Shown: in pieces, positions 558-29,039 of the stretch
Position numbering within the stretch: the stretch's first letter is position 1
Layout of the letters: each line of letters begins with the position of its first letter
IMG/VR virus record: IMGVR_UViG_3300042469_000981
DNA: 64,000 nt
Reading direction: 5' to 3' (one strand)
Source: a virus
Notes under the pieces: generated by a model
Databases searched by the model: none
What the model was told of the DNA's origin: nothing
Seen by the model: the letters and a program-made list of their open reading frames with translations, nothing else
Made by a program: the position numbers and the translations under genes

Positions 558-2315
558 TTACGCTGGGAAAGTTGCTCCAGTAGGTAAGATGTTGAAATCC
601 AAGTAAATGAATTCAGCTGTCTTAGTCGGCTGTAAGTAAATTTGACCAACCAATTGGTTTCTATCAATTACATCAGGAGTGTTATTGCTATCATCCATTA
701 CTACTTTAAAAGCATACAAACCTTGACGTTGTTGAACTGATTCCAAATATGGGTTAACTTGGTTCAAGAAACTAGTACGAGTAGCAATTGTGTTCTGTTC
801 AAATACCAAGTTTTGAGCAACTTGAGAAATGTAAGATTTAAGAGCAATTAACAAACGACGAACGTTTACACGATCCAAAGCGCTAGCTTTAGTTTGTAAT
901 GTTTTTTGTCCGTAAACTACAACTCCAGTTCCGGGGAAAGTAGCAATTGGGTTAACTTTATTTTGATATAAAGTGTCGCGTTGTGATTGAGTCAATTTCT
1001 TTTCAGCTCTTACCACTGTGCTTAAACCACCTCTGTTAATACCTGCAGGTGCAAACCAAGGCTCTGATACTGTATCATTGTAAGCATAAACACCACCAAC
1101 CATAGTTGAAGCTGGTACCCAAACCAATTGAGCAGAATCTGGATCAACTGTTTGAACCCAAGGCCAGTATGAAGCAGCGTATGAAGTATTTTTAGCGTTA
1201 GCAGCTGAGGTAGCATCATTAACACTTGAACTAAAAGGTACTAAATCAGTTACATAAATAGCATCTCCACGATTTTGAGTGTTACTAATGATTGATGTTA
1301 CTTGGGAAGCACCAATAGTAGCTGTATTAGCAAATAAACCAGGAGTTAACAATACATTGTATCTGTAGTCATCAGCATTAGCCATCAAACTAATCATATC
1401 ACTGTAATCGCTGCCTGTTAAACCTTGAGTGTTAGTTGAAGCAACATCAATGTTATTATAATAATCAGCGCCTGAACCGAATAAATCACCAACAGCACCT
1501 ATGAATGATCCACTTGCGTTAGCTGGAAGAGATCCGGTTAATGTTGATTTAGCTATACCGTTATTATCAAAATAGAATGGTGTAGGAGTTTTAACACTTT
1601 GTACATACACGTATCTTGAATTGTTAGGATAGTCTCCAGTGATTGAAATTTGGTTATCTACAGAATTGTAAGATTTTACTTGGTTACCAATTATTCTAGA
1701 TACGAAATTAGGAGCGGTTGGGTCCATTGATAAGTTAGTCCAACTTTCTAATACAGTAATGTTATTTGTAGTGTCATCACCTTGACGAATAAACAAACTA
1801 AAAGTACCGTTAGCGGTATCTTGGTTTGCAATTTGCCATCTGATATTATCAGCTGAACCTGAAGCTGTTAATGATCCACTAGCATCTAATGAGCAAGAAC
1901 TGTTCATTAATTTACCTTGTGAAATAGTATTTAATACTAAAGCTTCAGCTGCTGAGGCTGAGTTTAAAATAGATACTCCACCACCTGATCCACCAGTTAC
2001 TGAACCTGTAGCGGTTGTAGCTGAAGTGAATGAACCACTCACTACTCGTGATACCAACAATGTCTCTCCACCGTTATTAAAATAGTTGAAAGCAGCAATT
2101 GAGGTGAAATAAGTGTAAACTTGGCTAGCACTTAAAAAAGTAGTACCAAATTTATTCTGATAATCACTGTATGAAGTAACGATTGTAGGAATTTCTACAG
2201 GGCCTTTAACAGTAGGACCAATAAGAGCGGCTCCTACAGTTACTGGCTGTTGGGTGATAAATGACTGATCGTTTTCAAGTGCGAGTACGCCAGGGGATAT
2301 TAAAGTTTCTGCCAT
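558..2315 (-). CDS. gp18: Tail sheath protein (T4 gp18-like)
   Basis: 585 aa; N-terminal ISPGV, C-terminal PWFAPAGINRG, NKVNPIATFPGTGVVVYGQKTLQ and DRVNVRRLL sheath signatures. Confidence 0.95.
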   Translation of the reverse strand: MAETLISPGVLALENDQSFITQQPVTVGAALIGPTVKGPVEIPTIVTSYSDYQNKFGTTFLSASQVYTYFTSIAAFNYFNNGGETLLVSRVVSGSFTSATTATGSVTGGSGGGVSILNSASAAEALVLNTISQGKLMNSSCSLDASGSLTASGSADNIRWQIANQDTANGTFSLFIRQGDDTTNNITVLESWTNLSMDPTAPNFVSRIIGNQVKSYNSVDNQISITGDYPNNSRYVYVQSVKTPTPFYFDNNGIAKSTLTGSLPANASGSFIGAVGDLFGSGADYYNNIDVASTNTQGLTGSDYSDMISLMANADDYRYNVLLTPGLFANTATIGASQVTSIISNTQNRGDAIYVTDLVPFSSSVNDATSAANAKNTSYAASYWPWVQTVDPDSAQLVWVPASTMVGGVYAYNDTVSEPWFAPAGINRGGLSTVVRAEKKLTQSQRDTLYQNKVNPIATFPGTGVVVYGQKTLQTKASALDRVNVRRLLIALKSYISQVAQNLVFEQNTIATRTSFLNQVNPYLESVQQRQGLYAFKVVMDDSNNTPDVIDRNQLVGQIYLQPTKTAEFIYLDFNILPTGATFPA

Positions 2316-2622: not shown

Positions 2623-2632
2623 ATGTTATTTT

Positions 2633-3409: not shown

Positions 3410-3446
3410 ATGTTAATAAATATATGTTTTTTAGTTAAGTTTTAAA

Positions 3447-5816: not shown

Positions 5817-5822
5817 TTAGTT

Positions 5823-6074: not shown

Positions 6075-6076
6075 AA

Positions 6077-8485: not shown

Positions 8486-8489
8486 TTAA

Positions 8490-8771: not shown

Positions 8772-8796
8772 TTTATTATTTTGTTATAAATATTAA

Positions 8797-12017: not shown

Positions 12018-12026
12018 AGTGTATGA

Positions 12027-12410: not shown

Positions 12411-12411
12411 A

Positions 12412-12929: not shown

Positions 12930-12930
12930 A

Positions 12931-15541: not shown

Positions 15542-16657
15542 TTATAAAGCAGTAATGAAGTAAGTTTCATATCCTCCATGACACCAACCGTAACCAAGTG
15601 GGAATTTCTCACTCATTAAATCATGAATAGAATTTTCCGGAATGTTACTACGTTCATCAAACTTTAGTTTAATGTGGATGCCTGGATTAGTTTGTTTTAG
15701 TTTATCTATAATGTTAGTTAGACTACTGAATGTTTGTTCGTTAAGGCAAACTATAACTTCGTCAAATTTCATATCTGAAGTACTATCAAAGTACAAATCA
15801 TGATCAAAGAATAATTCCTTTAGTAGCTGACGTTCATATACCTTAATATCTTCTTTTACATAAAGTATACTCTGTCTTGAAGATGCTGTATTAAAATCAC
15901 CCATAGCAAAATCTCTAGATTGATACTTGATAGGTAGGTAGTATAATGAGGTTGTTAGTTTGTCTGGATTGTTTAAGTAAGGGAACTTGCTTTCAATAAA
16001 TAATCTTTCTGCTTCAATCTCAGCATAAGTTTCACCTGATCTTCCTGGTTCTCTTGAAAATGTGTCTATTGAGTAGTTATACTCATATAAGGTTCTAGGA
16101 ATATACAACCATTTTCCTTTAGTTTCAACATATCTAACTATGTTAGTATCGTTTTGATACCACTTTAATTGACCCTCGTCAAAACTAGGTATAATATTTC
16201 TCCAAGCCCGTCCCATTGGGGTATAGTTAAAAGTAGATATTTCTTCATAATCATAGTGGCCTCCTCCTTGAATTTCTACAAATTCACCTTTTTCATTTAT
16301 ATTTTTTGAATAACAGCTTATACCCGCTACATCAGGATGTTTTAAAAATAAGTGATTGTAAACCTCTAAAATGCGAGGATAAGCATAATCATCACTATCA
16401 AACTGAATTACTATTTCTCCGGTTGTTCCAGATTGTGGATTATAAAAGCATTCTTTTTTTCTAGACTGCTGATAGTACTTTACTCTAGAATCTTTTTTAC
16501 AAATTTCCTTTAGTAATTCTTCAGCATTGTTATAGTCTGAAAAGTCATCAGTAACAATCCATTCCCAATCTTGATGGGTTTGGTCTAGAATTTGTTTGTA
16601 TAGTTTTTCAACTAAATGGCTTCTTCTATAGAATGATGTGCTTATACTAAATTTCAT
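15542..16657 (-). CDS. Glycosyltransferase family 2 (GT-A fold)
   Basis: MKFSISTSFY...QTHQDWEWIVTDDFS...IQFDSDD (DxD); start moved to 16657 for an ATGA overlap with the upstream stop. Confidence 0.85.
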   Translation of the reverse strand: MKFSISTSFYRRSHLVEKLYKQILDQTHQDWEWIVTDDFSDYNNAEELLKEICKKDSRVKYYQQSRKKECFYNPQSGTTGEIVIQFDSDDYAYPRILEVYNHLFLKHPDVAGISCYSKNINEKGEFVEIQGGGHYDYEEISTFNYTPMGRAWRNIIPSFDEGQLKWYQNDTNIVRYVETKGKWLYIPRTLYEYNYSIDTFSREPGRSGETYAEIEAERLFIESKFPYLNNPDKLTTSLYYLPIKYQSRDFAMGDFNTASSRQSILYVKEDIKVYERQLLKELFFDHDLYFDSTSDMKFDEVIVCLNEQTFSSLTNIIDKLKQTNPGIHIKLKFDERSNIPENSIHDLMSEKFPLGYGWCHGGYETYFITAL

Positions 16658-17268
16658 GGTTTCCAGATTCCTATCCCACCGAAGTGTTCTTTTTGTCCAA
16701 AACAAGTTGTTTTACCTGATGATTTTATAGTAACTATGTTAGTTTTAGAACCATAAGATAGGTCCTGCCAAAATTTATATACCTGTCCACCAGCACCATC
16801 TCTAAAGATATGGTCAGGATCAATATCATGAAACACAATATACCCTCTAGGTGACAATAATTCTTGATATAATTCAAAATCACGTCTTACACCTTCATAT
16901 GAATGATCTCCATCAATAAAAATTAGATCATATTCAGGGCAGAACTCTTTAACTTTATCTCTTGTTTCTTCAGTTTGTGAATCAGCTATAAATAACTTAA
17001 AGTCTTCTCCATACATCATATAGTGAGACCAAATTGTTCTACCTTTATCCTCATAATCAACAGCTGCTTTTTTACCTGTTGATAATTGAGACATAATATG
17101 AAATGAACTTCCTTTAAATCCAATTTCTAGGATATTGTTAGCTTGAAATCCTTTAAGCCAGTAACCAAATGTAGTTATCTCCTCATAAACCTGCTGGAAT
17201 AAAGTAGGTTCGATAAGGAAATCCTTAACATGATAGTCAATTAATTCCTGTATACTTATGTCTTTCAT
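16654..17268 (-). CDS. Class I SAM-dependent methyltransferase (Methyltransf_24-like, probable sugar O-methyltransferase)
   Basis: 204 aa; ILEIG motif I, YDLIFIDGDHSYEGVRRDF, GYIVFHD. Confidence 0.85.
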   Translation of the reverse strand: MKDISIQELIDYHVKDFLIEPTLFQQVYEEITTFGYWLKGFQANNILEIGFKGSSFHIMSQLSTGKKAAVDYEDKGRTIWSHYMMYGEDFKLFIADSQTEETRDKVKEFCPEYDLIFIDGDHSYEGVRRDFELYQELLSPRGYIVFHDIDPDHIFRDGAGGQVYKFWQDLSYGSKTNIVTIKSSGKTTCFGQKEHFGGIGIWKP

Positions 17269-18218
17269 TAGCTAAAAAAGAATACTGTTCCGTTTTCACT
17301 TTCAATATTACATCCATCTTCAAATTGGCATTTAAATCCTAATGAATTAAAACGTTCAACTATAGAATTTAAACGTCCTTGTGAATTGTGGTATTCTAAA
17401 AGAATTTTATCTGTTATTTCGAATATAGCATTTGATGTACTATCAATAACATTCCATTCTTCACCTTCAATATCTAATTTTAAAAGATTAATTTTATTCC
17501 AACCTAAAGTATTTACTACATTCTGCAGGGTTGTTGTTTGTACTATTTTAGTATTAGGATTATCGAAAGTAGAAAATTCACTGTGCTGAATATCTAAAGT
17601 TGAGATTAAAGGATTATCTTCCTTCCAGTATAAAGCGGTTTGTTCTTCTCGGTCAGATAGTGCTTCACCGATAATAGTTATATTAATATTATCTAAAAAA
17701 TTACTAATTAAAGCCTTGATGCTTCTATCATCACATTCTATAGCAGCTACAAGCTTGGCTCCTTTATTTAAAATGTATTGAGTAAATAAACCGACACTGG
17801 CCCCAGCGTCAATTACCTTCTCACAATTACTCAAATCAAAGTCTTTATATTTGTCATCAACAAAAAACTCTCGGTAATTAACAAATGATGGATGGTAGTA
17901 ATCGTTTATATTCTGTTTATGCTTGTATAGATTAGTGTATCTAAACCTCAAAATGATTCTGTCTAAGACTACACCTTCATCAATTAATTCTAAGGTAAAA
18001 CCTCCAAAATCCTCTCTACTAAAATCAAATCCGTGTTTAGGGGTTGGTTGGAAGAATACATAAAGACCGGGTTGTACGTCCCATATCTTCATTTTGTATA
18101 TAGTAGCATCTAAATCAATGTCTTTAGCTACTATGTAACCATTCTTAACAGGGTGATAAACACGAAGATCAATTCGCTGTTCATCAAAATTGTAATTTAT
18201 TAATTCAAAACTTTTCAT
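17268..18218 (-). CDS. FkbM-family methyltransferase with extra N-terminal domain
   Basis: 316 aa; VIDAGASVGLF, IECD, INLLKLDIEGEE, ILLEYH. Confidence 0.9.
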   Translation of the reverse strand: MKSFELINYNFDEQRIDLRVYHPVKNGYIVAKDIDLDATIYKMKIWDVQPGLYVFFQPTPKHGFDFSREDFGGFTLELIDEGVVLDRIILRFRYTNLYKHKQNINDYYHPSFVNYREFFVDDKYKDFDLSNCEKVIDAGASVGLFTQYILNKGAKLVAAIECDDRSIKALISNFLDNINITIIGEALSDREEQTALYWKEDNPLISTLDIQHSEFSTFDNPNTKIVQTTTLQNVVNTLGWNKINLLKLDIEGEEWNVIDSTSNAIFEITDKILLEYHNSQGRLNSIVERFNSLGFKCQFEDGCNIESENGTVFFFS

Positions 18219-18243
18219 TATTTATAAAACTTTTTATTTTCTT

Positions 18244-18990
18244 TTACCCTAGTAACGGGACTATCCCGGCGTAGAGTGGTTCTCCAGTTATGCTAAATGG
18301 AGTTGTGTCTCCTCCAAGTACAACTGCTCCTTTAACTAAGTTACCGGCACTCAAACCAAGTGTATTCTGTATTGTATAACTGTTTTCTGTGTAAGCTAAA
18401 ATATTTGCTACAATCCTAGCTTTGTCTCCAGGTGTAGCTAAGTTAAAGCTAAATGGTGGTTGTGTCCAAGAAATATTATTTATCAAACTTACCCAAGTTC
18501 CTTCTGATGCTAGTGGGTTAGATGAATTAGGTAATCCTCTTTGTGATTTCCATCCATTCTGAAATAAATCATCTTCGTCGGTGAAAGCGTACTGTACTAT
18601 GTGAGATCCAGCGGCGAATGTAGAATCATTCAACGAAGGTGTTACTATGTAGTAAGCATTACCTGCAGGTTCATTAAGTGAAGTAAAGGTTACTCCTGGT
18701 GCTGCTGTAGCAATAGAGGCAGAGTCTATAGTATAAGCCGATAATTGAACGAAGTATAATTTACCTCTAGTTGTTCCTACAGGATAGGGAGTATACATTT
18801 GAAAGTCTTTTAATGCATTATTTCCTCTACTTCCAGTAGGCCATGTAAATTTATTATTTGGAGTAGAGGGAGGTGTGATGCCTAAGTAAGCATAGTTGTA
18901 GTTACTAGAAGCCATTTGGCCATTCCAAAAAGTATCTAATGATCCTGTGTTATTAGCACCTACGCCGGTTGCCATCCAAATTCCTGCCAT
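18244..18990 (-). CDS. Hypothetical protein, probably structural, embedded in glycosylation cluster
   Basis: 248 aa, G/T/N/S-rich and low in charge; own ATATTTATTA motif at 18995..19004. Confidence 0.5.
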   Translation of the reverse strand: MAGIWMATGVGANNTGSLDTFWNGQMASSNYNYAYLGITPPSTPNNKFTWPTGSRGNNALKDFQMYTPYPVGTTRGKLYFVQLSAYTIDSASIATAAPGVTFTSLNEPAGNAYYIVTPSLNDSTFAAGSHIVQYAFTDEDDLFQNGWKSQRGLPNSSNPLASEGTWVSLINNISWTQPPFSFNLATPGDKARIVANILAYTENSYTIQNTLGLSAGNLVKGAVVLGGDTTPFSITGEPLYAGIVPLLG

Positions 18991-18993
18991 ATA

Positions 18994-20187
18994 TTAATAA
19001 ATATCCAAAAGTTTATTAACTGACATAATTACTTGATCTGGAGTAATAGTTTTAGTACATTCAAATTGGCGAGGGGTATCTTTATGGTCTGGACACCATT
19101 CCCAGTCGCCTGGATCTAACCATTTGCGGTTAAAACATCCTTTACATGTTTTAGGATCTTCAGGATAAACACGTTCACATTCCTGGAATTCAGTATATGG
19201 ATGGCTAAATCCTGAAATCATAATTGTAGGTGTGTTTAAAGACCAGGATAACCAACTTAATCCACTACCTACACCAATAAACATTTTAGCATCCCTAATA
19301 TCAACCATTCTGTCTTGTAATGGTAAATCTCCAGTTTTATTAATTACACCTGTTAAAGTACCTCCTAGTTTAGAGTCATGCCATTCATCACCTAAAGGCT
19401 CTTGAGTAAGCATTACTACTTTATAACCTTTATCATTTAAATAATCAATAACAGTTTGCCATCCTCCTTTATAATTCCAATACTTAGCATGGGCTGAAGC
19501 ATGAGGAGCAATAACAACATAATCACCTTTAATATCTGTTTTTGTTTTAGGTGAGTTTATAATAGGTTTAACTTCAGAGTATTTTAACCCTAAAATTTCA
19601 CTTGCTGTTTGTTGTAAAGGATATTTTTTAAAGTCAATTGGTATCTTATCAAATATAACTTTTTTATCATCATAAAACCAACCAAGATTATACATTGCAT
19701 AAAGGTTATCTACTTGAGAACCAGGTTTTACAAACTCAATATGTGGGTAATTTCCTTCAAACCATTCATTGTGGAATGTAGAACAAATTACATCACACAT
19801 AAATGTTTTTCTAAATTCTTCAATGTAAGGGAACCATGCTAAAGTATCACCCATAGCCCCAGAATCAATGTGTATATAAACGCGTTTATCTTTTACACAC
19901 CAATCATGATCAAATACTAAATTGTTGTTACTATAAACTTCTATACGCCAATTAACACAATATTTAATGTTGGTACGAGTCCACATATTGTTATTAATTG
20001 TACTTTCATGTAATACACGATTTGTTTTTTTATTAATAAATTTAACTTTATATTCTTGTTCTGATGGTCCTAAAACTTCTAAGAAAGCACCATTAACAAA
20101 ATTAACATTAAAAGTGTTTTGTGGTTTTTTGTTTTTAATATTTAATATTTTAGTATTACTATATTCTTTAACCAATATGTCTTTCAT
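18994..20187 (-). CDS. tibC: Aah/TibC-type (BAHT, autotransporter strand-loop-strand) protein O-heptosyltransferase homologue
   Basis: 397 aa; N-terminal beta domain ending KYCVNWRIEV; GAMGDTLAWFPY; FIGVGSGLSWLSWSLNTPTIMISGFSHPYTEF; CKGC-x13-C-x11-C in WCPDHKDTPRQFECTK, the Fe-binding Cys pattern of this family. Confidence 0.85.
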   Translation of the reverse strand: MKDILVKEYSNTKILNIKNKKPQNTFNVNFVNGAFLEVLGPSEQEYKVKFINKKTNRVLHESTINNNMWTRTNIKYCVNWRIEVYSNNNLVFDHDWCVKDKRVYIHIDSGAMGDTLAWFPYIEEFRKTFMCDVICSTFHNEWFEGNYPHIEFVKPGSQVDNLYAMYNLGWFYDDKKVIFDKIPIDFKKYPLQQTASEILGLKYSEVKPIINSPKTKTDIKGDYVVIAPHASAHAKYWNYKGGWQTVIDYLNDKGYKVVMLTQEPLGDEWHDSKLGGTLTGVINKTGDLPLQDRMVDIRDAKMFIGVGSGLSWLSWSLNTPTIMISGFSHPYTEFQECERVYPEDPKTCKGCFNRKWLDPGDWEWCPDHKDTPRQFECTKTITPDQVIMSVNKLLDIY

Positions 20188-21115
20188 ATAAATTTATTAA
20201 TTCAGCAGAACGATTTAACCAGGACAATTTTTCAGCGGTTTGTAAAGATAATTTCCTGTAGTCATTATATTCATTTATGATTGTATCTAACCCACGTAAC
20301 ATTTCTTGTAAATCACGAGGTGATCTCCATAACCCATGGAATGTAGTTTCTTCTTCAATCCATCCAAGTATAGGTAAACCACAAGCTGCTGCCTCTAATA
20401 TAGTTAAATTAGGATGACCTGCTTCTAATTCTGATGGGTGTAAAAAGATTGTATGTGAGTTATAAAGTTGTCTTAATTGTTCATTAGACGGCTCAGTTAA
20501 AATACTTAACTTAGGATAACCAAATATCCAAGGATTGTCATTAAACCAATTTTCATTATTTTTTGGACCAGCTATTGTGATAGGTAAATTAGAAGCCATA
20601 GCTACTTTAATACCTAATTCAAATCCTTTTCTATCATAAGAACCATATCCACCTAAACCATTATTTGCTAACATTAATAAACTATGATAAACAGGTGTTG
20701 TATCATTTGGTTTAAATGTATCTGTATTTACTCCATGAGAAAAATAATGCACATTAGGCAATTCAAAATAATCAACTAAATAACGAGCAGGTACTAAAGA
20801 AAAAATAGATTTTTCCATAGCCTTTCGATTTTGTTTATAAACATCTGAGTCTTTACCGTAATGGTAAGCATGGTGGTCATGATGCTGGAAGATATAAGGT
20901 ATGCCTTTGTCTGCTAATTCTAGGGCTAAGTTAGCAACATGAACCATTACTAAATCATAATCTCCTTTTTTAATTTCATTAGCCCATTTTATATCTACTT
21001 CATGACCTAATTCTTTTAAATTGCATGTAAATTCCCATACAATTTTTTCTATTGCTCCCCATGTGGGTGGAGGAATTGGTATTCCACATCCTGGATTTAC
21101 TTGGCAGATTTTCAT
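20168..21115 (-). CDS. Glycosyltransferase family 4 (GT-B fold)
   Basis: 315 aa; IPPPTWGAIEKIV, SHGVNTDTF, FLHPSELEAGHPNLTILEAAACGLP (E-x7-E type motif). Confidence 0.88.
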   Translation of the reverse strand: MKICQVNPGCGIPIPPPTWGAIEKIVWEFTCNLKELGHEVDIKWANEIKKGDYDLVMVHVANLALELADKGIPYIFQHHDHHAYHYGKDSDVYKQNRKAMEKSIFSLVPARYLVDYFELPNVHYFSHGVNTDTFKPNDTTPVYHSLLMLANNGLGGYGSYDRKGFELGIKVAMASNLPITIAGPKNNENWFNDNPWIFGYPKLSILTEPSNEQLRQLYNSHTIFLHPSELEAGHPNLTILEAAACGLPILGWIEEETTFHGLWRSPRDLQEMLRGLDTIINEYNDYRKLSLQTAEKLSWLNRSAELINLYERHIG

Positions 21116-21117
21116 TT

Positions 21118-21726
21118 TTAATTATGTACAAATAAACACTTATCTATAAAATATGGAATTAACTCATGTTTCATATTTTCTACTAATATTCCATCAGCTG
21201 CTGCTTCATGTTTATCTATTGAATATTTTTTTATAACTTCACTTTTTGTAGTAAATTGACCAAAATCAATATAACTATGTTGGATTTTAGGAATAAAATG
21301 TCCATAATCTTTTTTATTATGACTATGAATATTACTATATTTTCCTAAAATCATTTCCCAATATACAAAATTTACTTCAGGATTCCTAGTAATTGCTAGA
21401 TTAATTTCTTCAAGCAAAATAGGCATAAAGTAATTATCATCATTAGTATGGATAATCCAATCACCGGTTGCTAATTGGGTACCTACTTCTCTGCTATGAT
21501 GACCCCAATGGCCGTGTCTTATTTCTGTATTTGTATATTTAAATCTAGGATCTTTAAGATAATCTTCTAATTGATTTTTATGATTATTATTAAAACCATC
21601 ATGCACTAAAATAACTTCCCAATTACTATAAGTTTGACAAACAATACTTTGAAGATTACATTTAAGCAAGTGTGTTTGTTCCCAACATGGAATAATAAAA
21701 CTAAATTTTGTTTTTTCTATTTTCAT
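21118..21726 (-). CDS. Glycosyltransferase family 2 (GT-A fold)
   Basis: 202 aa; FSFIIPCW, CQTYSNWEVILVHDG, TGDWIIHTNDDNY. Confidence 0.88.
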   Translation of the reverse strand: MKIEKTKFSFIIPCWEQTHLLKCNLQSIVCQTYSNWEVILVHDGFNNNHKNQLEDYLKDPRFKYTNTEIRHGHWGHHSREVGTQLATGDWIIHTNDDNYFMPILLEEINLAITRNPEVNFVYWEMILGKYSNIHSHNKKDYGHFIPKIQHSYIDFGQFTTKSEVIKKYSIDKHEAAADGILVENMKHELIPYFIDKCLFVHN

Positions 21727-21728
21727 AG

Positions 21729-23720
21729 TTAATATAAAGTTAAGACTCCGTTTTTAGGTAATTGATTTTCAATATAATATTCATCAACTATTATTTTTTT
21801 ATTTTCTATTTGAGTTTGATCATGTATATCATAAGATGAATAAACTATAATGTATGTTTTTTTAGGATCAAACATAACTTGTCTAAACCAAGCTATTTTA
21901 TGTAAAACATTTACTGTTTCTTCAAAAAGCATATTCTCATCTTCGTAAACTGTAATGTTAATATTTCTACTATCAGTTGAATTAGCGATATTTAAAAACA
22001 CGGCAAATTGGTCTGGATGTTCTTTAATAGGTAGTACTGAAAAATATTCTACTCGGGAGTAATCTTTATGGGTAAAATTATCTTTTACTAATTTAGTAAA
22101 TTCAGATTCTTCTTCCCAATATATTTTATCAGCATCTTGATTAAAAGTATGGTATGTTAAATTTTCTAATCCGTTAGATTCACTACCCCATTTTACCATT
22201 AATGAATCATATTCTTTAGATGTTTTAATAGGTAAAAAATGATCTAAATAAAATTGAGGTTTAGTAGCTAAAAAATAAGTAATAACTGTATTGCCTTCTA
22301 GTTCTTTTCTTAAACCAACATATGCTTGTTTATTATTTAATATTAAAGATACATTGTCGATATAAGAAGCATTTTCTAAAATATAATCATAATTTAAAAA
22401 GAATATTTTTTTAATACCTAAACTATTAGCTAATGAAGCTGCATTGTAATAATTAGTATACACAGATGGTCCATGATAAACATCATTGTTTTCTCCAGAT
22501 AACATCAAATCTACTCTCCAACTACTATAATCAAACCAAGTATAACTATAGAATGTATGTTTAGTTAAAAGATTATTATTATCATAGATACAATAATCAA
22601 CTATTTCTTGCAGTTCTTTAGGAATTGGTAAGTGTGATGTTAATATAATTTTTCTACCTGTTTTCTTTAAAGACTCAATACATTCTTTAGTTGTTTCAAC
22701 TATAGAGTTTAAAATTGGGTAGGTTGAAACTACTATTGCTTCTTCTTCAGTTTTAGGTAAATTAGAATAATATAAAGTAGATTCAATTAAACTTAAATTA
22801 TAACTAAAATCAGTAAAGTCTAAGTAATTTACATTATAATCATCCCAATAATTAAGATATACAGGTAGGTTATATATTAAAACAGGTATTTGATATGAAA
22901 CTGCTTCTCTAATTACTAGAGGCATTGTTTCTTTATCATTGTTTGTGCCCCTGGATGTAAATAGGAATAGATCCATTGCTTGATAAAAAGCATCTACATC
23001 TGTTCTTTCATTCCACCAAGTTAAATTATTGGGTTTGTTTTTCATTAACGGTTCCCAATAATGTCTAAAGTTGTCGGCTTGATTACCTACACAATGGAAC
23101 TCATATTGAGGTAACGCTTTAGCATATTCAAAAAACTCAGCTTGGTTTTTACGGGGAGTAAATAATCCAATATGAAGAATATGTTTTTTATTAGGATCTA
23201 ATCCTAATTTTTGTAGTGCCCCTGTTCTATCCGGTCTTTCAATATATTCAATAGGATATTCAACTAATACTTTAGGAATGTCTATATCTTTATATTGATT
23301 AATCTGCCATTGTGATACAAACATAAACTTATCCGGGAAAAATTTCTTCTGAGTTGTGTCATAAGATGAGTCATGAGATGTTTCTACAATTTTATACTTT
23401 CTGTCTTGAGTATAAATTTGCTCAGCTATCTTACTATCCATAAAAAACTCAGGTATTTCCTCTAAATGAATAATATCGGGTTGGATATTATTAATAATAT
23501 TGATTAATTGCTGTTTATTATCGTCTAATGTGTAGAACTTTTCAGGGGCAACTAACTGCGTTATCTTATTGCGAGTCACTACTAATATACCACCAGTACA
23601 ATCAACCCATTCAACTAAATAAATATCATAACTATTTTTTAATAGTTCAATTTTTTTAGCTAAATATTGAGGTAATCCTCCTGTCGATAAATGAGGCGCT
23701 ACATATAGTAGTTTCTCCAT
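21729..23720 (-). CDS. GT4 glycosyltransferase fused to a second, probably GT-A-like, domain
   Basis: 663 aa; PHLSTGGLPQY, GLFTPRKNQ, FYQAMDLFLFTS...ETMPLVIREA; second half has AIVVSTYP...ILTSH...FFLNYDY. Confidence 0.8.
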   Translation of the reverse strand: MEKLLYVAPHLSTGGLPQYLAKKIELLKNSYDIYLVEWVDCTGGILVVTRNKITQLVAPEKFYTLDDNKQQLINIINNIQPDIIHLEEIPEFFMDSKIAEQIYTQDRKYKIVETSHDSSYDTTQKKFFPDKFMFVSQWQINQYKDIDIPKVLVEYPIEYIERPDRTGALQKLGLDPNKKHILHIGLFTPRKNQAEFFEYAKALPQYEFHCVGNQADNFRHYWEPLMKNKPNNLTWWNERTDVDAFYQAMDLFLFTSRGTNNDKETMPLVIREAVSYQIPVLIYNLPVYLNYWDDYNVNYLDFTDFSYNLSLIESTLYYSNLPKTEEEAIVVSTYPILNSIVETTKECIESLKKTGRKIILTSHLPIPKELQEIVDYCIYDNNNLLTKHTFYSYTWFDYSSWRVDLMLSGENNDVYHGPSVYTNYYNAASLANSLGIKKIFFLNYDYILENASYIDNVSLILNNKQAYVGLRKELEGNTVITYFLATKPQFYLDHFLPIKTSKEYDSLMVKWGSESNGLENLTYHTFNQDADKIYWEEESEFTKLVKDNFTHKDYSRVEYFSVLPIKEHPDQFAVFLNIANSTDSRNINITVYEDENMLFEETVNVLHKIAWFRQVMFDPKKTYIIVYSSYDIHDQTQIENKKIIVDEYYIENQLPKNGVLTLY

Positions 23721-23738: not shown

Positions 23739-24017
23739 TTAGAATGAAGCTACTTTGGTATTTTCAACTTCAGTAGGGATAAATTCACCACTTTCAATGT
23801 TGATAGTACCAGCACCATACTTGTCAGAAAGAGTTTTACCCATTTCAGATTCTTCTTCTTTTAAATCATTAAAGAATTTAACAAGTTCAGTTTCTCTAGC
23901 TTCAAGTTGCAATTTAGCAATTCTAAGATTACCAAATTCATTTACAAGAGCAGTGTTTTTTTGTTGGATTTCTTTAAGAGCGTCAATCTCTTTTTTAGTT
24001 AATTTTTTTGTAGCCAT
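23739..24017 (-). CDS. Small coiled-coil protein, paralogue of 2371..2622
   Basis: 92 aa; see 2371..2622. Confidence 0.6.
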   Translation of the reverse strand: MATKKLTKKEIDALKEIQQKNTALVNEFGNLRIAKLQLEARETELVKFFNDLKEEESEMGKTLSDKYGAGTINIESGEFIPTEVENTKVASF

Positions 24018-24083: not shown

Positions 24084-27000
24084 TTAGAAAACACCAGTAA
24101 TTATTCCTCCTACAACATTTATGTTTTGAGTTCCTGGAGGGTTCATTGGGATGTTTATAACTCCAGTATATCCAGGAGCTGCTCCTATAGAATATCCAGT
24201 TGAAGCATTAATTTGACCAGAAACATCTAGAGGATATCCGGGAGATGCTGTACCAATTCCTAATCTACTATTTGTAACATCAGCATATAGGAAAGATACA
24301 CTTTGTATTTGAGTTGTACTTGTAGTTCTAACTAGATAATCAGGTTGATTAGTAAACGTACCACCACTAATACCAGAAGTACCATTAAATGATAAACCTG
24401 AAGTACCAGCTGAACCGCTTGTACCTGAAGTACCGCTTACTGCAGATAAACCAGCAGCCCCTGCTATACCTGAAGTACCAGAGCTACCGGATGTGCCTGA
24501 TGTGCCTGAAGTTTGAGACGCTCCTGAAGCTCCTGCCGCTCCAGAAGTACCATTTGATCCATTCGTACCTGAAGTTCCTGAAGTGTTAGAAGATCCTGAG
24601 GCTCCTGCTGTTCCGTTTGAACCTGCTGAACCTGAAGTGCCAGAAGTATTTGATAAACCACTTGCTCCTGCTAGTCCTGAAGTACCACTTGAGCCTGAAG
24701 AACCACTTGAGCCTGAAGTACCAGAAGTGTTTGAGGATCCAGAAGGACCGGCTGTACCATTTGATCCTGTTGAACCACTAGAACCAGCAGTACCTGATGT
24801 GTTTGAAGATCCTGAAGGGCCAGCGGTTCCATTAGAACCTGTTGAACCTGAAGAACCACTAGTTCCTGATGTACTTGATACACCTGAACCACCATCTACT
24901 CCTGATGTACCTGTACTTCCAGACGAACCACTTGAGCCAGATGTTCCTGAAGTATTAGATGAACCTGAAGGGCCTGCGGTTCCATTTGAACCTGTAGATC
25001 CGCTTGAACCTGAAGTGCCAGAAGTGTTAGATGAACCTGATGGACCTGCTGTACCATTTGATCCTGTTGATCCAGAAGAACCAGATGTTCCTGATGAACT
25101 TGAAGAACCAGAAGCGCCTGCTGTACCGTTAGATCCTGATGAACCTGAAGTACCAGAAGTGGCACTTACTGCTGAAAGACCAGCAGCACCTGCTATACCA
25201 GAAGTACCTGAAGAACCGGATGTACCACTTGTTCCTGAGGTTGTTGAACTTCCAGAGGCACCTGCTGTTCCATTAGAACCAGTTGAGCCAGAAGTTCCAG
25301 AAGTATTAGAAGAGCCTGAAGCTCCAGCCGTTCCATTAGAACCAGTAGAACCACTAGTACCTGATGTGTTAGATAAACCTGAGTTCCCTGCTGTACCACT
25401 TGAGCCTGTAGAACCACTAGTTCCAGAAGTGCCGGAAGTATTGGAGGATCCAGATGGACCTGCTGTACCATTAGAACCGGTTGATCCTGAAGTACCGCTT
25501 GTACCTGAAGTAGATGATGCTCCTGAATTACCTGCTGCACCTGATGATCCATTTGAACCAGCTGAACCTGAAGTTCCAGATGTATTAGATATACCACTAG
25601 CTCCTGCTAATCCGGATGTTCCGCTTGAACCAGATGATCCACTAGAACCTGAAGTGCCAGAAGTGTTAGATGAACCTGATGGACCTGCTGTACCATTTGA
25701 TCCTGTTGATCCAGAAGAACCAGATGTTCCTGATGTATTAGAAGATCCAGAAGGACCTGCAGTTCCATTAGAACCTGTTGATCCACTTGAACCTGAAGTA
25801 CCGGAAGTAAAGGATGTACCTGAAGGGCCTGCTGTTCCATTTGAACCTGTTGACCCTGATGATCCACTAGTACCAGAAGTACTTGAAACGCCTGAACCTC
25901 CATCAACACCAGAAGTACCTGTTGAACCAGAAGATCCAGAAGAACCAGATGAGCCGCTTGTTTGTGATGCTCCACTAGCTCCTGCACTACCATTTGATCC
26001 TGTAGAACCAGAAGTACCAGAAGTGCCTGAAGAATTTGATTGCCCTGAATTACCTGCTGTACCTGAACTCCCTGTTGAACCAGATGATCCGCTTGAACCT
26101 GAAGTAAAAGATTCTCCAGATGCTCCTGCGTTTCCTGAAGTACCATTTGATCCTGAAGAACCGCTTGATCCTGAAGTACCAGAAGTGCCTGAAGAAGAAG
26201 ATGATCCAGAAGCACCAGCAGTACCATTAGAACCTGAACTTCCTGAGGTACCAGAAGTAGCACTTACTGCTGAAAGACCAGCAGCGCCTGCTATACCTGA
26301 AGTACCAGATGAACCGCTTGTTCCTGAAGTACCTGAAGTATTGCTACTACCTGATACTCCTGCACTACCATTTGATCCTGTTGATCCTGAAGTTCCTGAG
26401 GTACCTGAAGTGTTGCCTGTGCCTGAAGCACCTGCTGAACCATTTGATCCAGCTGAACCAGATGTACCTGAAGTTCCACTAGTACCTGAAGAACCACTAT
26501 TTTGTGATAAACCTGAAGTACCTGTTGATCCAGAAGAACCAGAAGTACCTGAGGTTGAACTTTGTCCTGAATTACCTGCCACTCCAGAAGAACCATTTGA
26601 TCCACTTGAACCTGATGTTCCAGAACTAGCTGATTGTCCTGATGATCCATCAACACCTGATGAACCACTTGAACCTGATGAACCACTTGATCCAGAAGTA
26701 CTAGACACTCCTGAAGAACCATTTGATCCTGATGATCCAGATGAACCACTAGATCCACTTGTACCAGAAGTAGAAGAACTTCCTGAGGCACCGGCTGAAC
26801 CATTTGATCCAGCTGAACCACTAGTACCTGATGTATTTGATATACCACTAGCTCCTGCTAATCCTGATGTACCAGAAGAGCCAGAGCTACCTGACGATCC
26901 AGAAGATCCGCTTGAACCAGATGTCCCAGATGTGTTACTTTGTCCTGAAGAACCATTTGACCCTGATGAACCACTTGTTCCTGATGTACCACTAGAACTA

Positions 27001-29039
27001 CTTTCTCCTGAAGAACCATTTGACCCTGATGAACCAGAAGTACCACTAGTACCAGAAGTTCCAGCACTTCCACTTGCCTGAGAAAGACCTGAGGTACCTG
27101 TTGATCCAGAACTACCTGAAGTTCCAGAAGTTGAAGATTGTCCACTATTACCCGCTGCTCCAGAAGAACCATTTGATCCACTAGATCCAGATGTACCTGA
27201 AGTACCGCTTGTACCAGAAGAATTAGATTGTCCACTACTACCTGCTAATCCAGAAGAACCGTTTGATCCAGAGGAACCACTAGTGCCTGAAGTTGAAGAT
27301 TGACCTGATGATCCATCTAACCCGCTTGAACCAGATGAACCGCTTGAGCCAGAAGATCCGCTTGTTCCACTAGTACCTGATGATTGAGATAGACCAGAAG
27401 TACCAGTTGATCCACTTGAACCTGAAGTACCAGAAGTACTTGATTGACCACTATTGCCTGCTACTCCAGATGAACCATTTGATCCAGAACTACCTGAAGT
27501 ACCTGAAGTTGAGGATTGACCTGATGAACCATCTGCTCCTGTTGAACCTGAAGATCCAGAAGAGCCACTGGTTCCTGAAGTTGAAGATTGTCCTGATGAG
27601 CCATTAATACCTGAAGAACCATTTGATCCACTAGATCCAGATGAGCCGCTTGAACCTGATGTTCCACTTGTTGAAGATATTCCTGAGCCTCCATCAACAC
27701 CAGAAGTACCTGAGCTGCCTGAGCTGCCTGAACTACCGCTTGTACCTGATGTACCGCTTGTTTGAGATAAACCATCAGTTCCGGCTGAACCATTTGAACC
27801 TGAAGAACCACTAGTTCCACTAGTACCAGAAGATTGTGATAGACCAGAAGTACCTGTACTACCGCTTGATCCAGAAGTACCTGATGTGCTTGATTGGCCG
27901 CTATTTCCAGCTACACCTGAAGATCCATTTGAACCTGAACTGCCTGAGGTACCAGAGGTAGATGATTGTCCTGATGAGCCATCTAATCCACTTGAACCTG
28001 AAGATCCAGATGAACCACTGGTTCCACTTGAACCTGATATTCCTGATGATCCATCTACTCCGCTTGAACCAGATGAGCCATTTGAGCCTGAAGAACCACT
28101 AGTTCCACTAGTGCCTGATGATTGAGATAAACCTGAAGTGCCTGTTGATCCACTTGATCCAGAAGTACCAGAAGTAGAAGATTGACCTGAGTTACCTGCT
28201 AAACCTGAGGAACCGCTTGAACCTGAACTACCTGATGAACCTGACGTTCCAGAAGAACCATCTTGTCCACTAGAACCAGATGAACCACTTGAGCCAGAAG
28301 ATCCTGAACTACCTGATGATCCACTTGTACCACTACTGCCATCATTACCACTTGAACCAGCAGAACCACTAGATCCAGAAGATCCACTTGTACCACTGAT
28401 TCCTGAAGATTGTGATAGACCAGAAGTACCAGTTGATCCACTTGAACCTGAAGTTCCTGAAGTAGATGATTGTCCACTATTACCTCCTGCTCCTGAAGAA
28501 CCATTTGATCCTGATGAACCAGAAGTTCCACTAGTACCTGAACTTCCTGAAGAACCACTTGAGCCGGATGTACCACTAGTTCCTCCACTTGTTCCTGAAG
28601 AACCTTCTACACCACTAGTTCCTGATGAACCTGTTGAGCCTGATGATCCACTTGTGCCTGCTGTTCCACTTGTACCTGAAGAGCCAGATATTCCTGAGGT
28701 ACCAGATGAACCTCCTGAAGTACCTGAACTTCCGCTTACACCAGAAGTACCATTTGACCCTGATAAACCACTTGAACCTGCTAATCCAGAAGAACCATTT
28801 GATCCAGATGTACCTGAAGTACCTGAGGTGCCTGATGTGCCTGCTGTTCCACTTCCGCCTCCGCCTCCTTGAACTAAAGATACAACACCATCATCGTTTA
28901 TAGTTAAAACGTAACCTTCCCAACCTTCAGTTACAATAGGTAAATTAAATTTATTAAAAGCTAATGACCTATCAAAAAAACCTCTACCTTGGTTTGGGTT
29001 GTCTAAACGATTATTACCTCTGTATCTGTTTTCGGCCAT
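24084..29039 (-). CDS. Giant Gly-Xaa-Yaa (GSS/GTS/GSN) repeat fibre protein
   Basis: 1651 aa; about 1500 aa of triplet repeats; C-terminal RLGIGTASPGYPLDVSG fibre module; own ATATTTATAC motif at 29052..29061. Confidence 0.8.
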   Translation of the reverse strand: MAENRYRGNNRLDNPNQGRGFFDRSLAFNKFNLPIVTEGWEGYVLTINDDGVVSLVQGGGGGSGTAGTSGTSGTSGTSGSNGSSGLAGSSGLSGSNGTSGVSGSSGTSGGSSGTSGISGSSGTSGTAGTSGSSGSTGSSGTSGVEGSSGTSGGTSGTSGSSGSSGSSGTSGTSGSSGSNGSSGAGGNSGQSSTSGTSGSSGSTGTSGLSQSSGISGTSGSSGSSGSAGSSGNDGSSGTSGSSGSSGSSGSSGSSGSSGQDGSSGTSGSSGSSGSSGSSGLAGNSGQSSTSGTSGSSGSTGTSGLSQSSGTSGTSGSSGSNGSSGSSGVDGSSGISGSSGTSGSSGSSGSSGLDGSSGQSSTSGTSGSSGSNGSSGVAGNSGQSSTSGTSGSSGSTGTSGLSQSSGTSGTSGSSGSNGSAGTDGLSQTSGTSGTSGSSGSSGSSGTSGVDGGSGISSTSGTSGSSGSSGSSGSNGSSGINGSSGQSSTSGTSGSSGSSGSTGADGSSGQSSTSGTSGSSGSNGSSGVAGNSGQSSTSGTSGSSGSTGTSGLSQSSGTSGTSGSSGSSGSSGSSGLDGSSGQSSTSGTSGSSGSNGSSGLAGSSGQSNSSGTSGTSGTSGSSGSNGSSGAAGNSGQSSTSGTSGSSGSTGTSGLSQASGSAGTSGTSGTSGSSGSNGSSGESSSSGTSGTSGSSGSNGSSGQSNTSGTSGSSGSSGSSGSSGSSGTSGLAGASGISNTSGTSGSAGSNGSAGASGSSSTSGTSGSSGSSGSSGSNGSSGVSSTSGSSGSSGSSGSSGVDGSSGQSASSGTSGSSGSNGSSGVAGNSGQSSTSGTSGSSGSTGTSGLSQNSGSSGTSGTSGTSGSAGSNGSAGASGTGNTSGTSGTSGSTGSNGSAGVSGSSNTSGTSGTSGSSGTSGIAGAAGLSAVSATSGTSGSSGSNGTAGASGSSSSSGTSGTSGSSGSSGSNGTSGNAGASGESFTSGSSGSSGSTGSSGTAGNSGQSNSSGTSGTSGSTGSNGSAGASGASQTSGSSGSSGSSGSTGTSGVDGGSGVSSTSGTSGSSGSTGSNGTAGPSGTSFTSGTSGSSGSTGSNGTAGPSGSSNTSGTSGSSGSTGSNGTAGPSGSSNTSGTSGSSGSSGSSGTSGLAGASGISNTSGTSGSAGSNGSSGAAGNSGASSTSGTSGTSGSTGSNGTAGPSGSSNTSGTSGTSGSTGSSGTAGNSGLSNTSGTSGSTGSNGTAGASGSSNTSGTSGSTGSNGTAGASGSSTTSGTSGTSGSSGTSGIAGAAGLSAVSATSGTSGSSGSNGTAGASGSSSSSGTSGSSGSTGSNGTAGPSGSSNTSGTSGSSGSTGSNGTAGPSGSSNTSGTSGSSGSSGSTGTSGVDGGSGVSSTSGTSGSSGSTGSNGTAGPSGSSNTSGTAGSSGSTGSNGTAGPSGSSNTSGTSGSSGSSGSSGTSGLAGASGLSNTSGTSGSAGSNGTAGASGSSNTSGTSGTNGSNGTSGAAGASGASQTSGTSGTSGSSGTSGIAGAAGLSAVSGTSGTSGSAGTSGLSFNGTSGISGGTFTNQPDYLVRTTSTTQIQSVSFLYADVTNSRLGIGTASPGYPLDVSGQINASTGYSIGAAPGYTGVINIPMNPPGTQNINVVGGIITGVF
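24360..28860 (-). repeat. 9-bp/tripeptide low-complexity repeat with higher-order units (e.g. 24-aa GSTGSNGTAGPSGSSNTSGTSGSS)
   Basis: Direct reading of translation and DNA (cctgaagtac/cctgatgaac-type units). Confidence 0.95.

What the first reader, a model, noticed from the sequence alone, without database searches (positions are those of the whole stretch)
15542..23720. Complete glycan build-and-cap cluster placed inside the tail operon
Seen: GT4 fusion, GT2, GT4, BAHT-like, a probable structural ORF, FkbM MTase, Methyltransf_24-like MTase and GT2 are contiguous, several with overlapping stop/start codons. They lie between gp15 and gp18, which are much closer in T4. No nucleotide-sugar biosynthesis genes are visible in this window. 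Established: FkbM and related class I MTases O-methylate sugars, and some phages glycosylate virion proteins. Inference: an initiating protein O-transferase, 4-5 elongating GT domains and two capping methyltransferases that build a methylated oligosaccharide on virion proteins from host-supplied donors.
Basis: partly seen in the sequence, partly recalled or inferred. Interest (0 to 1): 0.85.

Follow-up and report, generated by a model that had tools for sequence, protein, structure and literature searches.

The report
Phage fibre sugar-coating gene cluster
An uncultured aquatic phage carries, just after the gene for a very long serine-rich collagen-like fibre, eight tightly packed genes dominated by sugar-adding and methyl-adding enzymes, one a true relative of the enzyme E. 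coli uses to sugar-coat its adhesins; the phage probably coats its own fibre with methylated sugars, but no sugar has been seen.

Summary
Window 15542-23720 (- strand) has eight contiguous genes: GT4 fused to an unknown domain (A), GT2 (B), GT4 (C), a TibC/Aah-type heptosyltransferase (D), an unknown 248-aa protein (E), an FkbM methyltransferase (F), a Methyltransf_24 methyltransferase (G) and GT2 (H).

D passes the curated TibC/Aah model and keeps the catalytic Asp, three of the four sugar-binding residues (the fourth is Thr->Ser) and the four iron-finger Cys.

The cluster is not one fixed unit. Only fibre-A-C-D, placed ahead of the tail sheath gene, is conserved:
- 78 of 78 distinct related loci have C and D.
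- 41 of 48 have a proline-poor Gly-Ser/Thr collagen-like gene upstream.

B, E, F, G and H are absent from the first 80 TibC-bearing viral loci; only H-like GT2 genes turn up in a few loci of a later scan. In relatives, E, F, G and H homologues lie elsewhere in the genome. Only one metagenome contig shares the extended layout.

Proteins elsewhere fuse GT4, GT2, both methyltransferase types and A's unknown domain in one chain. This argues that these enzyme types form one pathway.

"Complete" is not supported, because a second GT/MTase cluster lies outside the window. No evidence makes E structural.

This scan has already noted the TibC-plus-collagen-fibre system on at least 127 other genomes. 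I found no paper describing it. Everything here is inferred from sequence.

The parts
24084..29039 (-). 1651-aa collagen-like fibre, the proposed sugar acceptor. It has 442 Gly-X-Y triplets in runs (residues 58-1550), mostly GSS and GTS, and is 37% Ser, 12.5% Thr and 1% Pro.
   Evidence: PHROG tail fibre / collagen-like families; composition; same position in relatives
39238..42129 (-). Second collagen-like protein, 963 aa, with 209 triplets (GSS/GTS). A possible further acceptor.
23739..24017 (-). 92-aa small protein of unknown role. It is a paralogue of the 83-aa ORF at 2371-2622, which sits directly before the sheath gene in all relatives.
21729..23720 (-). A: residues 1-320 are a GT-B/GT4 glycosyltransferase. 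Residues 321-663 are a conserved alpha/beta plus beta-sandwich domain with no named family.
21118..21726 (-). B: 202-aa GT2 glycosyltransferase. It is absent from all related loci examined.
20168..21115 (-). C: 315-aa GT4-type glycosyltransferase, part of the conserved core.
   Evidence: Pfam borderline; present in 78 of 78 related loci
18994..20187 (-). D: TibC/Aah-type (BAHT) protein O-glycosyltransferase, part of the conserved core and the proposed initiating enzyme.
   Evidence: PDB 4rap E 9e-57; TIGR04414 319.8 bits against cut-off 200; catalytic, sugar-binding and iron-finger residues conserved in 56 of 56 homologues
18244..18990 (-). E: 248-aa protein of a conserved family (47 homologues) with unknown function. 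In relatives it is encoded about 30 kb away, next to homologues of window 60022-60447 and 58301-59659.
17268..18218 (-). F: FkbM-family SAM methyltransferase (domain at residues 135-295). The N-terminal 120 aa are unassigned.
16654..17268 (-). G: Methyltransf_24 SAM methyltransferase, with weak matches to rhamnosyl O-methyltransferase/CmcI.
15542..16657 (-). H: 371-aa protein with GT2 at the N-terminus and about 220 aa unassigned. The corrected start is ATG 16657.
558..2315 (-). Tail sheath gene. In relatives it follows D directly, after one small ORF. Here it lies 16.7 kb downstream of D.

Best explanation
This is a phage-encoded, cytoplasmic system that O-glycosylates the phage's own Ser/Thr-rich collagen-like fibre or fibres.

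Proposed mechanism:
- The TibC/Aah-type enzyme D puts a first sugar on Ser/Thr of the Gly-Ser/Thr-Ser repeats of the 1651-aa protein encoded just upstream, and perhaps of the 963-aa paralogue. The sugar may be a heptose from host ADP-heptose, but the donor is uncertain.
- The soluble GT4 and GT2 enzymes (A, C, B, H, and possibly A's unnamed C-terminal domain) extend the glycan.
- The FkbM and Methyltransf_24 enzymes (F, G) O-methylate sugars.
- All donors come from the host.

The ancestral, conserved module is fibre + A + C + D, sitting between neck-region genes and the tail sheath gene. In this phage, and in one close relative from a metagenome contig, four further genes (E, F, G, H) lie directly behind D. 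In other relatives these lie in a different part of the genome. A fifth gene, B, sits between A and C here only. The result is an unusually long cluster.

Shown: gene content, D's family membership and residues, synteny, and domain fusions.
Inferred: the acceptor, the donor, the order of steps, the methylation target, and the presence of any glycan at all.
For: 1. D belongs to the BAHT family by sequence.
- It matches TibC at E 9e-57 over nearly its full length.
- It scores 319.8 bits on TIGR04414, whose cut-off is 200.
- The catalytic Asp110, sugar-binding Lys230, Arg286 and Trp305, and iron-finger Cys339/342/358/370 named in PMC4358343 are conserved here. Across 56 distinct phage homologues all are invariant except Arg286 (55 of 56). 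Thr226 is Ser in 55 of them.
- BAHTs are the only characterised members of this family, and they glycosylate Ser in repetitive proteins in the cytoplasm.

2. Synteny.
- Among 80 distinct loci carrying an A homologue, 78 of 78 with enough downstream sequence have C and D.
- 41 of 48 with at least 3 kb upstream have a collagen-like ORF (20 or more triplets in runs, 29-53% Ser+Thr, 0-3.8% Pro) before A.
- The pairing also holds in the distantly related, cultured Microcystis phage Mel-JY01, whose capsid protein is 47% identical.

3. Domain fusions.
- Mel-JY01 fuses GT4, A's C-domain and TibC in one 1226-aa protein.
- L115 fuses FkbM, GT4 and the C-domain.
- L129 and L162 appear to fuse C and D: their 700- and 923-aa C-like ORFs take the D match (inferred).
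- Unrelated 1183-2145-aa proteins combine GT4, Methyltransf_24, GT2, A's C-domain and FkbM in one chain.

4. Enzyme properties and gene neighbourhood.
- All eight proteins lack membrane segments.
- No initiating lipid-carrier transferase, flippase or polymerase is present.
- The genes are packed with overlaps inside the late structural gene block.

5. Donor supply.
- No nucleotide-sugar synthesis families occur in the record.
- The probable host order is Flavobacteriales. ADP-heptose adenylyltransferase (TIGR02199) scores above its cut-off in 47 of 121 genomes sampled from that order.
Against: - No experiment exists, so the glycan is hypothetical.
- Adjacency to the fibre does not prove the fibre is the substrate.
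- Seven of 48 loci lack a collagen-like gene upstream. One of these (L121) is only a short contig. L128, L129 and L162 have a recombination nuclease gene there instead. L041 and L044 have a different Gly-rich repeat fibre.
- Known BAHT substrates are beta-helical autotransporter passengers, not collagen-like tracts. None is present here.
- The residue that sets heptose stereoselectivity in TibC (Pro300; Ser in Aah) is Gly in all 56 phage enzymes. The donor may therefore not be ADP-heptose.
- Homologues of E, F, G and H lie far from the core in relatives, in a region of small ORFs. They may serve another target.
- A second GT/MTase cluster exists elsewhere in the genome.
Confidence: 0.55

Rival explanations
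1. Two systems lie side by side. The conserved A-C-D core glycosylates the collagen-like fibre. E, F, G, H (and perhaps B), which lie elsewhere in relatives, act on a different target. That target could be the Gly-rich/LamG fibre proteins encoded just downstream (12931-15507 and beyond), or a host molecule.
For: - B, E, F, G and H are absent from all 80 TibC-bearing viral loci first examined.
- In relatives, F, G and H homologues lie among small ORFs tens of kb from the core, next to another GT4-like gene (L098 and L037 come from the same contig).
- E homologues lie about 30 kb away.
- In this window and in L093, E-H are flanked downstream by the 858-aa Gly-rich fibre gene, which is also missing from that position in other relatives.
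Against: - The same enzyme types are fused with the A-type GT4 and C-domain in single proteins.
- FkbM methyltransferases are inserted between C and D, or fused to A, in several relatives.
- H-like GT2 genes lie inside the core cluster in L117, L121 and L180.
Confidence: 0.2
2. The enzymes remodel host envelope glycans (LPS core, capsule or S-layer glycoprotein) during infection, for example to block superinfection or to release progeny. They do not modify the virion.
For: - GT9, GT2, GT4 and GT25 families are best known from LPS and polysaccharide synthesis.
- PHROGs files the GT4 family under 'moron, auxiliary metabolic gene and host takeover'.
Against: - D scores 319.8 bits on the TibC/Aah model but only 20-40 bits on the LPS heptosyltransferase models.
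- There are no membrane segments and no lipid-carrier, flippase or ligase genes.
- The genes sit in the late structural block with conserved linkage to a fibre gene.
Confidence: 0.12
3. The enzymes glycosylate other virion proteins (capsid, sheath or tube), as in mycobacteriophages. The neighbouring fibre is coincidental.
For: - Virion glycosylation of capsid and tail tube C-termini by phage-encoded GTs is reported for mycobacteriophages (Freeman et al. 2023, as cited in PMC12619734).
- In relatives the cluster directly precedes the sheath and tube genes.
Against: - BAHTs act on highly repetitive Ser-rich substrates.
- The fibre offers 825 Ser/Thr in repeats.
- The fibre-cluster linkage is kept across distant phages, while the downstream neighbour differs in this window.
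Confidence: 0.08
4. The enzymes hypermodify phage DNA with sugars.
For: Phage GT-B enzymes can glycosylate hydroxymethylated bases (papers listed).
Against: - D is a protein glycosyltransferase by family.
- The genes are in the late structural block.
- No base-hydroxymethylation genes were seen near the cluster. The rest of the genome was not searched for them.
Confidence: 0.02

Closest known systems
TibC-TibA and Aah-AIDA-I of E. coli (bacterial autotransporter heptosyltransferases, BAHT; TIGR04414; PDB 4RAP/4RB4; PMC4358343)
   Same: D is a full-length sequence member. It has the N-terminal barrel region, GT-B catalytic domain, catalytic Asp, sugar-binding Lys/Arg/Trp and the four-Cys iron finger. 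It is encoded next to a very repetitive Ser-rich protein, and it is a soluble enzyme.
   Different: - It is encoded by a phage.
- The neighbouring repeat protein is a proline-poor collagen-like fibre, not an autotransporter.
- The stereoselectivity residue is Gly.
- It is accompanied by several further GTs and methyltransferases, whereas TibC and Aah add single heptoses.
Virion glycosylation in mycobacteriophages (Freeman et al. 2023, Cell Host Microbe; known to me through PMC12619734, because the paper itself is not held)
   Same: Phage-encoded glycosyltransferases lie beside structural genes and modify the phage's own virion proteins.
   Different: - There the targets are the C-termini of the capsid and tail tube subunits.
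- The enzymes are not BAHT-type.
- Here the presumed target is a repeat fibre, and nothing has been shown experimentally.
Serine-rich-repeat adhesin glycosylation in Gram-positive bacteria (GtfA/GtfB plus accessory GTs) and SdgA/SdgB of Staphylococcus (own knowledge; GtfA 4pqg and SdgB 7ec1 appear among the fold matches of A)
   Same: Soluble GT4 enzymes glycosylate long Ser-rich repeats in the cytoplasm, step by step. A variable set of extra GTs diversifies the glycan.
BclA exosporium glycoprotein of Bacillus anthracis/cereus (own knowledge)
   Same: A collagen-like Gly-X-Thr repeat filament carries many O-linked oligosaccharides that contain methylated sugars.
   Different: BclA is a bacterial spore protein that is proline-containing (GPT). 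Its enzymes are unrelated to BAHT.
Chlorovirus PBCV-1 A064R and Geobacillus WsaE (multi-domain glycosyltransferase-methyltransferase enzymes; own knowledge)
   Same: GT and sugar O-methyltransferase domains are combined in one chain and cap a protein-linked glycan. This matches the 1183-2145-aa fusions found.
   Different: The folds and families were not compared here. The targets are a capsid protein N-glycan and an S-layer glycan.

Membership tests
BAHT (TibC/Aah; TIGR04414) | Full-length sequence match above the curated equivalog cut-off | tested here: met
   TIGR04414 scores 319.8 bits against a cut-off of 200, covering profile positions 12-373 of 374. TibC (4rap) matches at E 9e-57, residues 22-393 against 21-386.
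BAHT (TibC/Aah; TIGR04414) | Catalytic base Asp110 and sugar-binding Thr226, Lys230, Arg286 and Trp305 (PMC4358343) | tested here: met
   The equivalents D114, K235, R293 and W312 are conserved, and Thr226 is replaced by S231. Among 56 distinct phage homologues: D 56, K 56, R 55, W 56, S 55 plus T 1.
BAHT (TibC/Aah; TIGR04414) | Four-Cys iron finger (Cys339, 342, 358, 370) | tested here: met
   C348, C351, C365 and C377 are present, and invariant in 56 of 56 homologues. Iron binding itself was not tested.
BAHT (TibC/Aah; TIGR04414) | Uses ADP-heptose as donor | not testable with these tools
   The stereoselectivity position (Pro300 in TibC, Ser in Aah) is Gly in all 56 homologues. The phage record has no heptose-pathway families. 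TIGR02199 scores above its cut-off in 47 of 121 sampled genomes of the probable host order.
BAHT (TibC/Aah; TIGR04414) | Acceptor is an autotransporter passenger encoded nearby | tested here: not met
   No Autotransporter domain occurs in the 135.8-kb record. The neighbour is a collagen-like fibre. This lowers 'same substrate class', not enzyme-family membership.
BAHT (TibC/Aah; TIGR04414) | Ring-shaped dodecamer | not tested
   No multimer model was made. The thumb hairpin region differs and carries a 5-residue insertion.
GT4 / GT-B glycosyltransferase (A residues 1-320; C) | Pfam match over the cut-off and a GT-B two-Rossmann fold | tested here: met
GT2 / GT-A glycosyltransferase (B, H) | Pfam Glycos_transf_2 over the cut-off | tested here: met
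   53.1 and 49 bits against a cut-off of 23.3. The DxD motif was not examined.
FkbM-family methyltransferase (F) | Match over the curated cut-offs | tested here: met
   PF05050 at 40.1 bits (cut-off 22.7). TIGR01444 at 70.3 bits (cut-off 37.7). That its substrate is a sugar is inferred from fusions with GT domains.
Methyltransf_24 (G) | Match over the Pfam cut-off | tested here: met
   53.4 bits against a cut-off of 26.3. The rhamnosyl O-methyltransferase/CmcI match is below its cut-off.
Glycosyltransferase (A residues 321-663) | Recognisable GT fold or family | tested here: inconclusive
   - No Pfam match at E up to 1 and no PDB sequence match.
- The secondary structure is Rossmann-like followed by a beta-sandwich.
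- The Atlas gives only weak leads to GT25 and WavE.
Phage virion glycosylation system (as in mycobacteriophages) | Glycan shown on a virion protein and dependent on phage GTs | not testable with these tools
   This needs virions or co-expression followed by mass spectrometry.

The most novel reading that the evidence does not exclude
Glycosylation is what lets this fibre exist. Dense O-glycans on the Ser/Thr of Gly-Ser/Thr-Ser triplets would stabilise a nearly proline-free collagen triple helix about 0.4 micrometres long, as galactosylated Thr does in Riftia cuticle collagen. The swappable GT/MTase cassettes around the fixed TibC-type initiator would then give each phage lineage its own glycan coat, tuning adsorption or protecting against proteases and grazers. 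This would make a phage-borne BAHT pathway a widespread, unrecognised determinant of virion architecture in aquatic phages.
Probability: 0.25. Interest if true: 0.85.

Novelty: new variant of a known kind. Interest (0 to 1): 0.62.

Why it matters
Protein glycosylation by phage-encoded enzymes has been shown only for a few mycobacteriophage capsid and tail proteins. BAHT enzymes are known only as adhesin modifiers, mostly of pathogens.

If the reading is right:
- A BAHT-centred pathway is common in aquatic myophages. At least 322 IMG/VR contigs encode a relative of D.
- It acts on a new substrate class, collagen-like repeats.
- It comes with a modular, fast-changing set of extension and methylation enzymes.

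That would:
- explain how proline-free 'collagens' of 1000-2400 residues can be stable;
- add glycans to the factors that shape phage adsorption and persistence in water;
- supply a ready toolbox of soluble enzymes for decorating repeat proteins.

A cultured carrier exists (Microcystis phage Mel-JY01), so the idea can be tested directly.

Tried and rejected
- Megablast of the 8.2-kb cluster against GenBank phages found no match.
I used the search for related loci instead.
- A single-sequence pattern scan for E in viral contigs found nothing. An alignment-based scan found 10 loci.
- E has no Pfam, PHROG or NCBIfam family.
- A's C-terminal domain was searched against PDB sequences with a profile. 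The only result was a chance 34-residue match.
- I considered that the 832-aa ORF with a CTP_transf_like N-terminus (G000 131873-134371), and its Mel-JY01 counterpart, might be an HldE-like heptose-activating enzyme. I rejected this: the matches are short and weak (16.6-22.9 and 21 bits), and no PfkB or SIS domain occurs anywhere in the record.
- The promoter/terminator scan was uninformative. It found fewer sites than in shuffled sequence, and sigma-70 consensus may not apply to the host.
- The literature search 'TibC + phage' returned only unrelated hits.
- Freeman et al. 2023 is not held.
- Nothing was found on Mel-JY01.

Full report
**What is there.**
The window is part of a 135.8-kb IMG/VR virus record, 83% complete by CheckV. 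Almost every gene in it is on the - strand. Its major capsid protein is closest to Flavobacterium phage immuto (53% identity), Microcystis phage Mel-JY01 (47%) and Rhodothermus phage RM378 (34%). It is therefore a distant T4-like myophage. Two related contigs sit in Flavobacteriales MAGs, which hints at the host order.

Between 23720 and 15542 lie eight back-to-back genes:
- A, 663 aa, GT4 at the N-terminus.
- B, 202 aa, GT2.
- C, 315 aa, GT4-type (borderline score).
- D, 397 aa, GT9/TibC-like.
- E, 248 aa, no family.
- F, 316 aa, FkbM methyltransferase.
- G, 204 aa, Methyltransf_24.
- H, GT2 at the N-terminus.

Several stop and start codons overlap. The G/H overlap (ATGA) moves H's start to 16657, giving 371 aa.

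**The key enzyme.**
D is a true BAHT.
- It aligns with TibC (PDB 4rap) from residue 22 to 393 at E 9e-57.
- It passes NCBI's equivalog model TIGR04414 with 319.8 bits against a cut-off of 200. LPS heptosyltransferase models give only 20-40 bits.

The TibC paper (PMC4358343) names the defining residues: catalytic base Asp110; sugar-binding Thr226, Lys230, Arg286 and Trp305; and iron-finger Cys339, 342, 358 and 370. By alignment these are D114, S231, K235, R293, W312 and C348, C351, C365, C377 in D. Across 56 distinct phage homologues, including the Mel-JY01 fusion, they are invariant except for one Arg and the uniform Thr-to-Ser change. The residue that selects the heptose stereoisomer (Pro300 in TibC, Ser in Aah) is Gly in all 56. 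The donor may therefore differ.

**The neighbour.**
Directly upstream lies a 1651-aa protein (24084-29039).
- It has 442 Gly-X-Y triplets in runs, mainly GSS (133) and GTS (105).
- It is 37% Ser, 12.5% Thr and 1% Pro.
- PHROGs matches it to tail-fibre and collagen-like families.

A 963-aa paralogue lies at 39238-42129.

**What is conserved.**
A pattern scan found 322 IMG/VR contigs encoding a relative of D. The recurrent gene order in them is:
- neck-region genes;
- a collagen-like fibre;
- a small ORF or ORFs;
- A;
- C;
- sometimes a 228-aa FkbM methyltransferase;
- D;
- an 82-aa ORF;
- tail sheath;
- tail tube.

The sheath and tube were identified. After a second scan seeded with an A-type protein I counted 80 distinct A-bearing loci.
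- All 78 with enough downstream sequence have C and D.
- 41 of 48 with at least 3 kb upstream have a collagen-like ORF before A.

The seven exceptions break down as follows.
- One (L121) is a short contig.
- One (L009) has a short Gly-Thr-Ser tract.
- Two (L041, L044) have a different Gly-rich repeat fibre with a Peptidase_S74 chaperone domain.
- Three (L128, L129, L162) have a nuclease gene there.

Mel-JY01 shows the same pairing. An unannotated collagen-like frame and a Ser-rich 'structural protein' precede a 1226-aa protein that fuses GT4, A's C-terminal domain and TibC.

**What is not conserved.**
B, E, F, G and H have no homologue in any of the first 80 loci.
- E belongs to a conserved family of 47 homologues. 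In relatives it lies about 30 kb away, between homologues of window 60022-60447 and 58301-59659. In two cases this is on the same contigs that carry the core. That slot is empty in this window.
- F, G and H homologues in relatives lie among small ORFs in another part of the genome, beside a further GT4-like gene.
- Only metagenome contig Ga0181348_1000495 (L093) has the same extended order. It lacks B.

Compared with relatives, this phage has 16.7 kb inserted between D and the sheath gene: E-H plus Gly-rich and LamG-type fibre genes. The 'cluster' is therefore a conserved three-enzyme core plus lineage-specific additions.

**Are the additions part of the same pathway?**
Domain fusions say the enzyme types work together.

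A's C-terminal domain (residues 321-663) is modelled with pLDDT above 90 as a Rossmann-like unit plus a beta-sandwich. It defines a family of 781 clusters. Large members combine it with the other cluster domains in one chain:
- a 1714-aa protein has GT4, two Methyltransf_24 domains, GT2 and the C-domain;
- a 2145-aa protein has GT4, Methyltransf_24, the C-domain and FkbM;
- a 1183-aa protein has Methyltransf_24, GT2, the C-domain and FkbM.

Such giant forms also occur in viral contigs at the A position. Other fusions seen:
- FkbM + A in L115;
- A plus a GT25-like domain in L065 and L081;
- C + D, inferred, in L129 and L162.

H-like GT2 genes sit inside the core cluster in L117, L121 and L180. 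This supports one glycan-building pathway with methylation. It does not prove that E-H act on the same acceptor here.

**Nature of the pathway.**
- None of the eight proteins has a hydrophobic segment (highest 19-residue Kyte-Doolittle mean 1.26).
- There is no lipid-carrier transferase, flippase, polymerase or ligase.
- No autotransporter is present.
- No Epimerase, NTP_transferase, SIS_2, PfkB or GDP_Man_Dehyd family occurs in the record, so donors must come from the host.
- ADP-heptose adenylyltransferase scores above its cut-off in 47 of 121 sampled genomes of the likely host order. Heptose is therefore possible but not assured.

- 'Complete' is not justified. A second block at 13.5-21.2 kb of the genome holds two GT2 genes, a Methyltransf_24 gene and at least one GT1-type gene.
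- E has a confident alpha/beta model (pLDDT 84, pTM 0.88) without any fold match. Nothing marks it as structural.
- 'gp15' rests on a weak PHROG match.

**Prior knowledge.**
- I found no paper that describes a phage BAHT or glycosylated collagen-like phage fibres.
- Virion glycosylation is reported for mycobacteriophages (cited in PMC12619734).
- This scan has already recorded the TibC-plus-collagen-fibre pairing on at least 127 other genomes. Those notes agree with what I found independently, and they gave me the lead to test TIGR04414.

**Verdict.**
The core interpretation, a phage system that glycosylates its own Ser/Thr-rich fibre, is the best-supported reading (about 0.55). The main rival is that the added genes serve another target. 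What this locus adds is the long, methyltransferase-rich version of the system and the fusion evidence tying the enzyme types together.

Noticed in passing
G000:C1:13567-21192 (outside the window; locus L188): A second glyco-enzyme block on the same genome holds GT2 (301 aa), Methyltransf_24 (229 aa), GT2 (202 aa), a GT1-type gene (477 aa) and several unassigned ORFs. It lies in the region where relatives keep their F, G and H homologues.
   Followed up: partly
window 59660-60021: In relatives the E-family gene sits between homologues of 60022-60447 and 58301-59659. L086 is 99% identical in the flanking genes and still has one there (46% identical to E). In this window the slot is empty, and the only E-family gene lies inside the glyco cluster.
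   Followed up: partly
window 2371-2622 and 23739-24017: Two paralogous small proteins (83 and 92 aa, helix-rich by sequence). One always lies directly before the sheath gene. The second lies between fibre and A in this phage and its closest relatives. Function unknown.
   Followed up: partly
window 2633-15507: Relative to most related contigs, about 13 kb of Gly-rich and LamG-type fibre genes (858, 578, 494, 802, 789 and 258 aa) is inserted between the glyco cluster and the sheath gene. The 858-aa protein is only 39% identical in the closest relative L093, while the flanking enzymes are 85-94% identical.
   Followed up: partly
L001 (Microcystis phage Mel-JY01, PP395634.1) 2-3052: A + strand frame with 202 Gly-X-Y triplets runs off the start of the record. 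GenBank instead annotates two hypothetical CDSs on the opposite strand there. The collagen-like gene is probably split by the record's arbitrary start and missed by the annotation.
   Followed up: no
L041 2-2296 and L044 1-4293: In this sub-lineage the gene before A-C-D is not collagen-like. It is a 1430-aa Gly/Ser/Asn-rich protein with repeats of about 15 residues and a Peptidase_S74 chaperone domain at its end. It is a different repeat fibre in the same position.
   Followed up: partly
G000:C1:131873-134371 and L001 11243-13162: A large protein (832 aa here, 639 aa in Mel-JY01) has a weak cytidylyltransferase-like N-terminus. Both are annotation-poor, and the role is unknown.
   Followed up: partly
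L093 7758-8704: In the closest relative with the extended cluster, the C gene is split into two ORFs (180 and 143 aa). This is either a frameshift or a sequencing error.
   Followed up: no
window 58301-59659: A 452-aa protein with an FAD/NAD-binding N-terminus (Pyr_redox_2, residues 6-45) is 70-99% identical across relatives. It sits a few genes upstream of the terminase gene, an unusual neighbour for packaging genes.
   Followed up: no
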